DNA from: the human T2T-CHM13v2.0 reference genome, Homo sapiens
Assembly: GCF_009914755.1 (NCBI RefSeq)
Contig: NC_060930.1
Strand: one strand, 5' to 3'
DNA length: 64,000 nt
Position numbers and translations under genes: made by a program. Below are positions 31,201 through 34,200 of the stretch, piece by piece (the first letter of the stretch is position 1; every line of letters starts with the position of its first letter). A model generated the notes under the pieces. That model saw only the letters and a list, made by a program, of their open reading frames with translations, was not told the origin of the DNA and made no database searches.

Positions 31201-34200
31201 ATGGCCGTTTTAGGCAGATTACGCTGTGTGGTGAATAGCAAACTTTGAACTAAATTTAGTGTCCTAATCAATTAAAAGTTAGAATAAATTCATCTGACAT
31301 TTAATGGTAGGCCTGAGTCAGTACCCTGTGATAATAAATAAGCAGATTGTGTATATAATTGGTGCTACTTAAAAATATTATAGTCAAGGCTGTTCAAGGT
31401 AAGCTGGAGAGAGGAAAGGGGAGAAATAGATAAAATTTAGCTGCTCTGAAGCCACTCTCAAGATCTCTGGATCTACATATAACCCAAAGAGACGCAGGCA
31501 GAAAGGCCTGCGTGCCTGCATGATCCTGAACTATGGTTTTCAGAGATGTCAGAAGGGCTAGTTTCCTTAATAATATTTTTATATATACGTATAGAATATT
31601 CCTTGACTAAAGAGTGAATCACCATTCAATCCTCCATTACTCCTCTTTAATTAACAATTACTTTCAAAATCACTGTATCATTACATAATTTATTCCTCAT
31701 ACCTGTTTTATGCCAAGCCAAAAGAAAATCAAATTTCAATGGCTTCTTTTCTTTGAAAGACCAAGATATTCTTTCATACTTCTTAGAATCCAAGTTTAAG
31801 GATAATTCCATCAAATCAATGGAAACAACTTTAAAAATGAAAAAAAGAACATATATTTCATTCATATACGTACAGCTTCTACCATGGAAAAAGTGTTACA
31901 TTTTTAAAAACTAGAATTTTGGGAAATTTTATGGATAGTAAAATTATTTTATTCTTCTTCCACTCCCTTTGGTTTGCCAAATAAATAAGATCCCTTTGGT
32001 GGGCACTTCTAACCTTGAGAGCTAATAAAAACAGACATTTTCAATTTATATGTTTCCTAGGTCAAAGACCAAGGGCAGAGGACCTTGAGAGGTCAGGTTT
32101 AATCTACTTATGGATGTGGCGGCCTTAGCTATTGATGTTCGAGCCAGACGCTGTCAGCAAAACATCTCTTCACTCATGGGTGAATTTCTACTAGTAATCA
32201 TAAAGACTTGGGGAAACCAAAGGAAATTCTTTATTAAGAATAAGTTGTAGACTCCTATCTTGGGTTCAGTACTTGGAATTTTTTTTTTTTTTTTTTTTTT
32301 TTTGAGATGGACTCTCACTCTGTCGCCAGGCTGAAGTGCAGTGGTGCGATCTTGGCTCACTGCAAACTCCCCCTCCCGGGTTCAAGCAATTCTCCTGCCT
32401 CAGCCTCCTGAGTAGCTGGGACTACAGGCATGCGCCACCACGCCCAGCTAATTTTTGCATTTTTAGCAGAGATGGGGTTTCGCCATGTTGGTCACAATGG
32501 TCTCAATCTCTTGACCTCATGATCCGCCCGCCTTGGCCTGCCAAGGTTTAACCCGAAACATATATATTTAATTGACCAGTCCAAGTCTACAATCTTTATT
32601 AAATGCATCTACAGCTGAAAAGAAATGAACTTAAAAGCATCATCCTATCCTCTGTGAAGCTCGAGTCAGAAGTTTGACAGATTTTTTTTAAAAGGCCACA
32701 TTTTTTTGAACAAAGAGATTAGAGGCAATTCAAACATTTAAATTTAAATTGCCACAAGAAGATTAGAAACAGATGGAACACACATGATACTTACTAAATT
32801 TCATAATTTTTCTGCCAGAAAACTGAGATGGATGACCCTGAAGTCCAGTTTCTTCATAAGTGTCTTTATCCAGTGACAAAATTAATTTCCCTATAAATCA
32901 AATAATAACTCCCATAAGATACCAAAACTAGAACTTACGTTGTCTGACTAAAAGAAAGCAAGGCAAATTGAGCAGTTAGATATCAATGTAACAAACTGCA
33001 TACAAGGATCTTATTTATATCACAAGAATATTATTTATGTGTATACATGTCTTGTAACAGATATTATTTATACATTATACATCCAAGGATATTATTTATA
33101 ATAGTGAAATTTAAAATAATCTGAATTTCTACTAAAGATGAAATAAATAAGTCATGGTATACTCATTCTTTTGAATATCTTCTTTTTTTTTTTCAGACAA
33201 TCTCATTCTGTCTCCCAGGCTGGAGCGCAGTGGCGCAATCTTGGCTCACTGCAACCTCCGCCTCCCAGGTTCAAAGCGATTCTCCTGCCTCAGCCTCCCA
33301 AGGAGCTGGGACTACAGGCATGAGCCACCACGCCGGCTAATTTTTGTATTTTTAGTAGAGGCAGGGTTTCACCATGTTGGCCAGGCTGGTCTCGAACTCC
33401 TGACCTCAGGTGATACACCTGCTTTGGCCTCCCAAAGTGCAGGGATTACAGGCGTGAGCCACCGTGCCCAGCTGACTTTTTTTTTTTTTTTTTTACAGTA
33501 TGCATTTTTTTTTAACAATTAAAGAAAGATGAAAAAATAAAGTGTTACCATTTGGTAGCAGGGCAACAGTATTATCTTCATCAATATGTGTATTGTATGT
33601 TAGTGCATAGCAAGAACCTGGAAGAGAAAGTACAGAGGAAAAATTTAAAACAAGAAATTACACCTGCAAGATGTTAGTGGATTATTTTTACAAGATAACC
33701 AGTCTTCCGGGTCATTAAAGGTCAGTTTCTACCCCTGCTCCAGCTCACTCAATAAACCAAACATCTGCTAAGGGTAAGCTGCAGCATGCAGAAGACCAAG
33801 CATGCAGAAGACCAAGCATGCAGAAGACCAAGCATGCAGAAGACCAAGCATGCAGAAGACAAAGCTTGCAGAAGACCAAGCATGCAGAAGACCAAGCATG
33901 CAGAAGACCAAGCATGCAGAAGAACAAGCATGCAGAAGACCAAGCATGCAGAAGACCAAGCATGCAGAAGACCAAGCTTGCAGAAGACCAAGCTCCAGCT
34001 AGTTCACTCCCTGACCAACAGCCTATTTGTGCAAGTTTACTATCATCAAGCAAAAAACTGACTCAGAACGGAACGTGACCTTTGGGGATGCGCGGAGAGG
34101 GGTCCAAAGTAGAATTCTAGATAAACATACACCTCTCAGAGGCAGAGTTCCAGGTTAAGATTCAAAAGCTACCCAACCTCTCCAAGCCTCAGTTTCCTCA

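What the first reader, a model, noticed from the sequence alone, without database searches (positions are those of the whole stretch)
33785..33992. Minisatellite built from RBFOX motifs upstream of RPP40 exon 3: candidate VNTR splicing rheostat
Seen: the 16-bp unit read in RPP40 sense is CUUGGUCUUCUGCAUG. Eleven of 13 units carry a perfect UGCAUG, two carry UGCAAG, and every junction gives UGCU. The array lies about 167-375 nt upstream of the exon 3 acceptor (33618). Exon 3 is 69 nt, phase 1-1, with a sub-optimal donor (ATG|GTAACA), so skipping removes 23 aa in frame. Established: RBFOX1/2/3 bind (U)GCAUG and generally repress an exon when bound upstream; MBNL binds YGCY. Inference: the array is a multivalent RBFOX/MBNL platform that silences exon 3 in RBFOX-rich tissues (brain, muscle, heart), and copy number could tune full-length RPP40 and so RNase P/MRP composition. 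I recall an annotated shorter isoform lacking this exon, but that needs checking.
Basis: partly seen in the sequence, partly recalled or inferred. Interest (0 to 1): 0.85.

Follow-up and report, generated by a model that had tools for sequence, protein, structure and literature searches.

The report
RPP40 intron minisatellite carrying RBFOX motifs
A real 13-copy, 16-base repeat full of splicing-factor motifs sits just upstream of an optional RPP40 exon, but nothing yet shows that it controls that exon, and its RBFOX motifs are predicted to be hidden in small hairpins.

Summary
A 16-bp minisatellite of 13 units lies at 33785-33992 on the RPP40 strand. It carries 11 perfect UGCAUG and sits 167-375 nt upstream of the 69-nt exon 3. 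One detail is wrong: UGCU occurs at 11 of 13 junctions, not all. The recalled short isoform exists. NM_001286132.2 and three Gnomon models skip exon 3 in frame, giving 340 instead of 363 aa.

The function is untested, and three results weaken the RBFOX reading.
- GCAUGC is self-complementary, so neighbouring units fold into 6-bp hairpins. Opening a UGCAUG costs about 5.5 kcal/mol. The UCUUCU in every unit, a top PTBP1 CLIP hexamer, sits in the loops at about 1 kcal/mol.
- Exon 3 has the weakest donor in the gene. Exon 5 is also skipped with no array nearby.
- Spaced UGCAUG repeats are common genome-wide.

No paper found links RPP40 to a VNTR, RBFOX or exon skipping.

The most likely reading is a slippage-born passenger with at most a modest silencing effect. 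If it is active, PTBP1/MBNL is at least as plausible as RBFOX. This is a testable candidate of a known kind, like the CFTR TG repeat and the ABCA7 VNTR.

The parts
33785..33992 (-). 16-bp minisatellite of 13 units in RPP40 intron 2. Consensus in RPP40 sense is CTTGGTCTTCTGCATG. It holds 11 UGCAUG, 13 UCUUCU, 23 UGC and 13 CUG.
Evidence: TRF gives 33783-33993, period 16, 13.2 copies, 96% matches. The unit is unique in the genome.
33799..33822 (-). Example of the predicted hairpin made by two neighbouring units: a 6-bp GCAUGC/GCAUGC stem with a 10-nt UUGGUCUUCU loop.
   Evidence: ViennaRNA gives -8.9 kcal/mol for this 24-mer. The same pairings dominate the folds of the whole array.
33618..33784 (-). 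167-nt spacer between the array and exon 3, including the 3' splice site. Its polypyrimidine tract scores 18 of 20 pyrimidines at -23..-4. Three overlapping PTBP1-type hexamers start at 33630, 33628 and 33627.
33549..33617 (-). RPP40 exon 3: 69 nt, phase 1-1, a cassette exon. Skipping removes 23 residues in frame.
   Evidence: RefSeq models with and without the exon give 363 and 340 aa.
33543..33548 (-). Exon 3 donor intron bases GTAACA (ATG|GTAACA), the weakest donor of the gene by consensus matches.
   Evidence: It scores 5 of 9 matches, against 6-7 of 9 for the other six donors.

Best explanation
This is a locus-specific intronic minisatellite. It most likely grew by replication slippage of a unit that contains the self-complementary hexamer GCATGC. 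The array is best seen as a passenger, not a selected regulator.

In the pre-mRNA the array is predicted to fold into a chain of small hairpins. Their stems are the GCAUGC cores, which hides the RBFOX motif. Their loops display UUGGUCUUCU.

The annotated skipping of exon 3 is explained mainly by the exon itself: 69 nt, in frame, and the weakest donor in the gene. The array probably adds little or only modest silencing.

Shown here: the anatomy, uniqueness in the genome, the isoforms, the donor ranking and the predicted folding. Inferred: the slippage origin, the passenger status and the size of any effect.
For: - The array has sharp edges and no decayed units in either flank. Local alignment scores are matched or beaten by 146 of 300 and 78 of 300 shuffles.
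- Unit identity is 96%.
- No other copy exists in the genome.
- The array alone folds far better than shuffles. As DNA it gives -31.0 against -14.4 +/- 2.3 kcal/mol, z = -7.26, with 0 of 200 shuffles as stable. As RNA it gives -60.2 against -47.9 +/- 3.4, z = -3.65, 0 of 200.
- The opening cost is 5.5 kcal/mol for UGCAUG (11 sites) and 1.0 for UCUUCU (13 sites), against 2.9 for 39 background hexamers. Sampling gave P(unpaired) of about 0.001 for UGCAUG.
- Exon 3 has the weakest donor, 5 of 9 consensus matches.
- Exon 5 (126 nt, in frame) is skipped in NM_001286133.2 with no tandem array nearby.
- Clustered TGCATG is common. There are 10,613 matches for three copies with 6-30 nt gaps and 303 matches for the period-16 pattern. 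Of the first 100 period-16 places listed, I grouped 57 loci; 23 lie in protein-coding genes and 13 are in sense orientation.
- No RefSeq functional element overlaps the array.
- No paper links RPP40 to a VNTR, tandem repeat, RBFOX, exon skipping or regulated alternative splicing.
Against: - The motif density is extreme: 11 high-information UGCAUG and 13 UCUUCU in 208 nt.
- The array sits inside the zone where upstream elements repress exons.
- The neighbouring exon really is a cassette exon with a weak donor, so it should be sensitive to silencers.
- Equilibrium folding of naked RNA may not hold in the nucleus, and a tight RRM could open stems worth about 5 kcal/mol.
- In the 512-nt context the fold is no better than shuffles (z = -0.56).
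- Passenger status cannot be shown without population and cross-species data, which I could not reach.
Confidence: 0.5

Rival explanations
1. PTBP1/MBNL-type composite silencer. The hairpin loops display UCUUCU to PTBP1 and the unit supplies UGC/CUG clusters for MBNL. Together with PTBP1-type hexamers in exon 3's own polypyrimidine tract, this forms a repressive zone over the branch-point and 3' splice-site region. Skipping would be highest where PTBP1 is abundant, the opposite tissue pattern to the RBFOX model.
For: - UCUUCU is in 13 of 13 units and is one of the six most enriched PTBP1 CLIP hexamers (PMC4764554 methods passage). UCUUC is named as a PTBP1 motif in a PMC4586487 passage.
- The density of the six hexamers is 62.5 per kb in the array against 4.9 per kb over the pre-mRNA.
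- Exon 3 is the only one of 7 internal or terminal exons with 3 such hexamers in its last 40 intron nt. The others have 0 or 1.
- The loops are predicted to be open, with an opening cost of 1.0 kcal/mol, or 0.5 when base-pair span is limited to 60.
- The array holds 23 UGC and 13 CUG.
- PTB sites plus UGC/CUG clusters bound by MBNL jointly repress Tpm1 exon 3 (PMC3643581 abstract).
Against: - No binding or PSI data could be reached.
- The Tpm1 paradigm uses elements on both sides of the exon. Here the downstream intron 3 has only 2 such hexamers in 658 nt (3.0 per kb, below the gene average).
- The pyrimidine run in each unit is short and is interrupted by GG.
Confidence: 0.22
2. The array is a multivalent RBFOX (plus MBNL) platform that silences exon 3 in RBFOX-rich tissues, with unit number setting the strength.
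For: - There are 11 perfect UGCAUG in sense orientation, and they are the only ones in the pre-mRNA.
- The array is upstream, where GCAUG promotes skipping (PMC9410899 introduction passage).
- A cassette isoform is annotated and the donor is weak.
- UGCU occurs at 11 of 13 junctions.
- The two natural UGCAAG units show that the motif can be lost without the unit being lost, which gives ready-made variants for a test.
Against: - Every UGCAUG is predicted to be paired, at 3.9-8.1 kcal/mol to open and a sampled P(unpaired) of about 0.001. Rbfox2 favours single-stranded GCAUG (PMC7900654 passage).
- No paper holds RPP40 together with RBFOX in a relevant way; 6 papers contain both words and none concerns this.
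- RPP40 is needed for RNase P and MRP activity.
- RPP40 alternative-exon changes are listed in infected versus uninfected cells in a study of an HIV drug candidate. The exon is not named, and the passage shown does not name the cell type (PMC6349857 table passage).
- Copy-number polymorphism was not shown here.
Confidence: 0.13
3. The effect comes from structure or DNA and not from a sequence-specific RNA-binding protein. The hairpin chain, or the hairpin-prone DNA, would slow or pause RNA polymerase II, or change the effective intron geometry, and so shift exon 3 choice kinetically.
For: Both the DNA and the RNA of the array fold much better than shuffles, with z = -7.26 and -3.65.
Against: The stems are only 6 bp. 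No evidence of pausing is available, and no RefSeq functional element overlaps the array.
Confidence: 0.05

Closest known systems
Intronic tandem repeats that modify splicing of the next exon: the CFTR (TG)n repeat bound by TDP-43 at exon 9, and the ABCA7 25-bp intronic VNTR (PMC10078293 introduction passage)
   Same: A tandem repeat lies in the intron upstream of a skippable exon. The repeat unit is itself a motif for an RNA-binding protein, and length is the proposed tuning variable.
   Different: For those repeats, polymorphism, protein binding or length-to-skipping association is reported. Here none of these is shown. The unit is 16 bp, lies further from the splice site (167 nt), and carries motifs for several proteins at once.
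RBFOX-repressed exons with upstream (U)GCAUG (positional rule as stated in the PMC9410899 introduction passage)
   Same: UGCAUG lies in the upstream intron of a cassette exon.
   Different: Known elements are usually one or a few copies, often conserved, in single-stranded context. Here 11 copies made by one repeat are predicted to pair with each other. Conservation and binding are untested.
PTB/MBNL co-repression of Tpm1 exon 3 (PMC3643581 abstract)
   Same: PTB-type pyrimidine motifs are interleaved with UGC/CUG clusters near a repressed exon.
   Different: Tpm1 uses elements flanking the exon on both sides and is regulated in smooth muscle. Here the motifs are on the upstream side only and come from a minisatellite.
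MYT1L intronic 16-bp VNTR in the same genome (chr2:2,013,947-2,016,272; L010:1448-3773)
   Same: It has the same period (16), the same GCATGC palindrome next to a pyrimidine-rich run, and an intronic position.
   Different: It has 146 copies at 84% identity and a different unit (my comparison of the two units finds 11 of 16 positions shared). It lies on the strand opposite to the gene, so the pre-mRNA carries 42 GCAUG but only 7 UGCAUG. Its distance from exons is not known here.

Membership tests
Minisatellite / VNTR | Head-to-tail copies of a unit of roughly 7-100 bp | tested here: met
   Period 16, 13.2 copies, 96% matches.
Minisatellite / VNTR | Copy number varies among people | not testable with these tools
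   Only one reference genome is available. VNTR catalogues are in supplements that were closed. The full-text search for RPP40 with VNTR found 1 paper, which is unrelated.
RBFOX-dependent intronic silencer | (U)GCAUG in the pre-mRNA sense, upstream of an alternative exon | tested here: met
   11 UGCAUG lie 167-375 nt upstream of exon 3. The exon is skipped in NM_001286132.2.
RBFOX-dependent intronic silencer | Motif available as single-stranded RNA | tested here: not met
   This is an in-silico test only. The opening cost averages 5.5 kcal/mol (range 3.9-8.1) for the 11 sites, against 2.9 for 39 background hexamers. The sampled P(unpaired) is about 0.001. The state in vivo is unknown.
RBFOX-dependent intronic silencer | RBFOX occupancy (CLIP) and a PSI response to RBFOX level | not testable with these tools
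   No CLIP or RNA-seq data are on hand. Six papers hold both RPP40 and RBFOX, and none concerns this.
RBFOX-dependent intronic silencer | Motif conserved across species | not testable with these tools
Splicing-associated tandem repeat (spl-TR) | Repeat length associated with splicing of a nearby intron in a population | not testable with these tools
   RPP40 occurs 0 times in the main text of PMC10078293. Its supplementary catalogue was closed.
PTB/MBNL co-repressed exon (Tpm1 exon 3 type) | PTB-type pyrimidine motifs and UGC/CUG clusters upstream of the exon | tested here: met
   The array has 13 UCUUCU, 23 UGC and 13 CUG, and 3 PTBP1-type hexamers lie in the last 40 nt of the intron.
PTB/MBNL co-repressed exon (Tpm1 exon 3 type) | Matching elements downstream of the exon as well | tested here: not met
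   Intron 3 has 2 PTBP1-type hexamers in 658 nt, or 3.0 per kb, against 4.9 per kb for the whole pre-mRNA.
PTB/MBNL co-repressed exon (Tpm1 exon 3 type) | PTB and MBNL binding, and a PSI response | not testable with these tools
   No binding or expression data are on hand.

The most novel reading that the evidence does not exclude
The array is a polymorphic, dose-dependent composite silencer in which RNA structure and proteins compete. In most cells the GCAUGC stems hold the UGCAUG shut and the loops present UCUUCU to PTBP1. Where RBFOX is abundant it melts the stems and takes over. Unit number and tissue would then jointly set exon 3 inclusion, and with it the supply of full-length Rpp40 for RNase P and RNase MRP.
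Probability: 0.08. Interest if true: 0.6.

Novelty: new member of a known kind. Interest (0 to 1): 0.33.

Why it matters
RPP40 is required for both RNase P and RNase MRP activity, and its loss lowers H1 and MRP RNA levels (PMC12406990 and PMC13408128 passages). A common repeat that changed how much full-length Rpp40 is made could therefore affect tRNA and rRNA processing.

The case would also be a clean one for studying how a minisatellite creates a splicing element in one step. It would show how a palindromic motif can mask itself.

The unit is unique in the genome. Public CLIP and RNA-seq reads over it can therefore be assigned without ambiguity, so the question is cheap to settle. Without such data it remains an ordinary intronic repeat with a suggestive sequence.

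Tried and rejected
- **Transposon or multi-copy origin.** Rejected. Only the locus itself matches. No masked-repeat row of 100 bases or more overlaps the array in the supplied annotation.
- **Known RNA family.** Rejected. Rfam at E <= 1 over 33000-35300 gave 7 matches and none in the array. Five are sub-threshold Alu-type hits at 33192-33472 (some overlapping), and one is a weak CPEB3-ribozyme-like hit at 34108-34202 (E = 0.53, 16.6 bits against a gathering score of 35), which I take as chance.
- **Older, larger array with decayed edges.** Not supported.
- **Global stability of the 512-nt region.** Not different from shuffles (z = -0.56). Only the array by itself stands out.
- **Genome-wide control for the TGCATG cluster count.** The tool's reversed-pattern control (639 against 10,613 matches) is biased, because the reversed hexamer contains CpG. 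I do not use that ratio.
- **Listing limits.** Only the first 100 of 303 places and 100 of 10,613 places were listed. The locus counts therefore cover chromosomes 1-6 only and rest on my own grouping of neighbouring places.
- **Literature.** One search was badly designed and returned only general VNTR papers.
- **Structural role of the 23 residues, and exon-3-less isoforms in other species.** Not done; see below.
- **Supplementary tables.** Those of PMC10078293 and of the VNTR catalogues may list this locus. They were closed.
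Full report
**What is there**

The sequence at 33785-33992, read on the RPP40 (minus) strand, is a clean 16-bp minisatellite. Tandem Repeats Finder gives 33783-33993, period 16, 13.2 copies, 96% matches, no indels, score 394. It is the only array of that strength in 19000-38000.

A register-by-register read gives 13 units. Nine are identical to CTTGGTCTTCTGCATG and four have one mismatch. 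Eleven units carry TGCATG. Units 1 and 8 carry TGCAAG.

It holds for 11 of 13 junctions.

The array lies in intron 2, separated by 167 bases from the 69-nt exon 3 (33549-33617). The exon is phase 1-1 and its donor is ATG|GTAACA.

**The isoform**

In the RefSeq table 4 of 9 RPP40 transcript models lack exactly this exon. These are NM_001286132.2 (curated, 340 aa against 363 aa for NM_006638.4), XM_054354064.1, XM_054354063.1 and XR_008487243.1.

Exon 5 (31703-31828, 126 nt, also in frame) is skipped in NM_001286133.2 and in two Gnomon models. No tandem array lies near exon 5. This gene therefore produces in-frame exon-skipped transcripts with or without a repeat nearby.

**Is it more than chance?**

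The window holds 38 TGCATG on both strands against 46.2 +/- 5.9 in shuffles, so there is no general enrichment. Eleven of the 38 are in the array. All 11 of the 11 sense-strand UGCAUG in the 9,308-nt pre-mRNA are in the array.

That concentration results from copying one unit. It is not 11 independent occurrences. The fair question is how often a repeat unit happens to hold this hexamer.

- Genome-wide, three TGCATG with gaps of 6-30 nt match 10,613 times. The tool's control is biased by a CpG, so I do not use it.
- The period-16 pattern matches 303 times.
- Among the first 100 listed places of that search (chromosomes 1-6) I grouped 57 loci. Of these, 23 lie in protein-coding genes and 13 are in sense orientation.
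- Most are TG-rich degenerate repeats. Long pure arrays are few in that list. The RPP40 array gives 8 matches and a MYT1L intron array gives 27.
- The human genome holds more than 55,000 VNTRs (PMC8327921, start of abstract in the listing).

One such array near an exon is therefore expected by chance. It is a candidate and is not evidence of selection.

**Origin**

The unit occurs nowhere else in T2T-CHM13. All 12 of the 12 two-unit matches at up to 3 mismatches are within the array, and the 381-nt query with flanks hits only itself.

The flanks contain no decayed units. Alignment scores are matched or beaten by 146 of 300 and 78 of 300 shuffles.

The single-stranded DNA of the array folds far better than shuffles: -31.0 against -14.4 +/- 2.3 kcal/mol, z = -7.26, with 0 of 200 shuffles as stable. 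This is because each unit contains the palindrome GCATGC.

I infer a young or continually homogenised array that grew by slippage. I could not test this across species or people.

**What the RNA would look like**

GCAUGC pairs with itself, so two neighbouring units make a 6-bp stem with a 10-nt loop at -8.9 kcal/mol. The array RNA alone folds at -60.2 against -47.9 +/- 3.4 kcal/mol for shuffles, z = -3.65, 0 of 200. In 512 nt of context the overall energy is unremarkable, z = -0.56.

In 2,000 sampled structures of a 651-nt stretch, each UGCAUG was fully unpaired in about 0.1% of samples. The figure was 12% for hexamers outside the array and 32% for UCUUCU.

| Hexamer | Sites | Mean opening cost, kcal/mol | With base-pair span <= 60 |
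|---|---|---|---|
| UGCAUG | 11 | 5.5 (range 3.9-8.1) | 4.6 |
| UCUUCU | 13 | 1.0 | 0.5 |
| Background | 39 | 2.9 (median 2.1) | not run |

Rbfox2 binding is associated with GCAUG in single-stranded RNA (PMC7900654 passage). This is a prediction for naked RNA at equilibrium. It lowers the RBFOX reading but does not kill it.

**Other readers of the same unit**

UCUUCU is in 13 of 13 units. It is one of the six hexamers most enriched in PTBP1 CLIP (PMC4764554 methods passage; see also the PMC4586487 passage).

Those six hexamers reach 62.5 per kb in the array against 4.9 per kb over the pre-mRNA. Exon 3's own polypyrimidine tract holds three of them, while the other six acceptors hold 0 or 1.

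The array also has 23 UGC and 13 CUG. PTB sites combined with UGC/CUG clusters bound by MBNL repress Tpm1 exon 3 (PMC3643581 abstract).

A PTBP1/MBNL silencer is therefore at least as well founded in the sequence as an RBFOX one. It predicts the opposite tissue pattern. Against it, the downstream intron lacks matching elements, at 3.0 hexamers per kb.

**The exon itself**

Exon 3 has the weakest donor of the seven in the gene, at 5 of 9 consensus matches against 6-7 of 9. It has the most pyrimidine-rich acceptor, at 18 of 20. A short in-frame exon with a weak donor is expected to be skipped at some level without any special element.

**Literature**

Full-text searches gave the following.

| Search terms | Papers | Result |
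|---|---|---|
| RPP40 + tandem repeat | 17 | none on this locus |
| RPP40 + RBFOX | 6 | none relevant |
| RPP40 + VNTR | 1 | unrelated |
| RPP40 + exon skipping | 0 | - |
| RPP40 + alternative splicing | 16 | one partial lead, below |
| RBFOX + VNTR + splicing | 18 | none describes an RBFOX-motif VNTR that regulates splicing |

The one partial lead is a table in PMC6349857. It lists RPP40 under 'Alt exons' between infected and uninfected cells, without naming the exon.

The concept itself is established. The introduction of PMC10078293 cites the CFTR (TG)n repeat bound by TDP-43 and the ABCA7 25-bp intronic VNTR as repeats that promote skipping of the downstream exon.

RPP40 is required for RNase P and RNase MRP activity, and its knockout lowers H1 and MRP RNA (PMC12406990 and PMC13408128 passages). 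This gives the locus its importance. It also argues against strong tissue-wide silencing.

**Verdict**

The functional interpretation is plausible in outline but untested.

My ranking of explanations is as follows.

| Explanation | Confidence |
|---|---|
| Slippage-born passenger with at most modest effect; skipping driven mainly by the weak donor | 0.50 |
| PTBP1/MBNL-type silencer | 0.22 |
| Structural or kinetic effect | 0.05 |

If functional, it would be a new member of a known kind, the splicing-modifying intronic tandem repeats. I rate interest at 0.33. It is a tidy candidate that can be tested cheaply, and it is not a surprise.

**What I could not do**

I had no CLIP data, no tissue PSI, no population alleles and no other vertebrate genomes.

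I also did not examine the structural role of the 23 residues or look for exon-3-less isoforms in other species.

Noticed in passing
L010:1448-3773 (G000:C2:2,013,947-2,016,272), inside the MYT1L gene span: A 146-copy, 16-bp VNTR with unit CTTTCCTGCATGCGTT and 84% matches. It has the same architecture as the RPP40 array: a GCATGC palindrome next to a pyrimidine-rich run, with period 16. It lies opposite to MYT1L, so the pre-mRNA would carry 42 GCAUG and 7 UGCAUG. MYT1L is, from recall, a neuronal gene, so RBFOX would be present where it is expressed. Its distance from exons is not known here.
   Followed up: partly
window 31703-31828: RPP40 exon 5 (126 nt, in frame) is a second annotated cassette exon. 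It is skipped in NM_001286133.2, XM_054354065.1 and XM_054354063.1, with no tandem repeat nearby.
   Followed up: partly
window 33168-33547: A masked repeat starts two bases after the exon 3 donor. Its 33192-33472 part gives sub-threshold SRP-RNA and Alu-derived miRNA-family matches on the RPP40 strand, so it is an Alu in sense orientation preceded by an A-rich run. Any effect on the weak donor was not examined.
   Followed up: no
window 33785-33992, units 1 (33977-33992) and 8 (33865-33880): The same T-to-A change (TGCATG to TGCAAG) is present in two units seven units apart. This suggests that a variant unit was copied within the array and did not arise from two independent mutations. These units also lack the palindrome and the RBFOX motif, so they are natural controls.
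   Followed up: no
genome-wide (first listed places on chromosome 1, for example C1:2,397,766-2,398,473): Most clustered TGCATG in the genome sits in TG-rich degenerate minisatellites of the TGTGTGCATG type, many of them subtelomeric.
   Followed up: no
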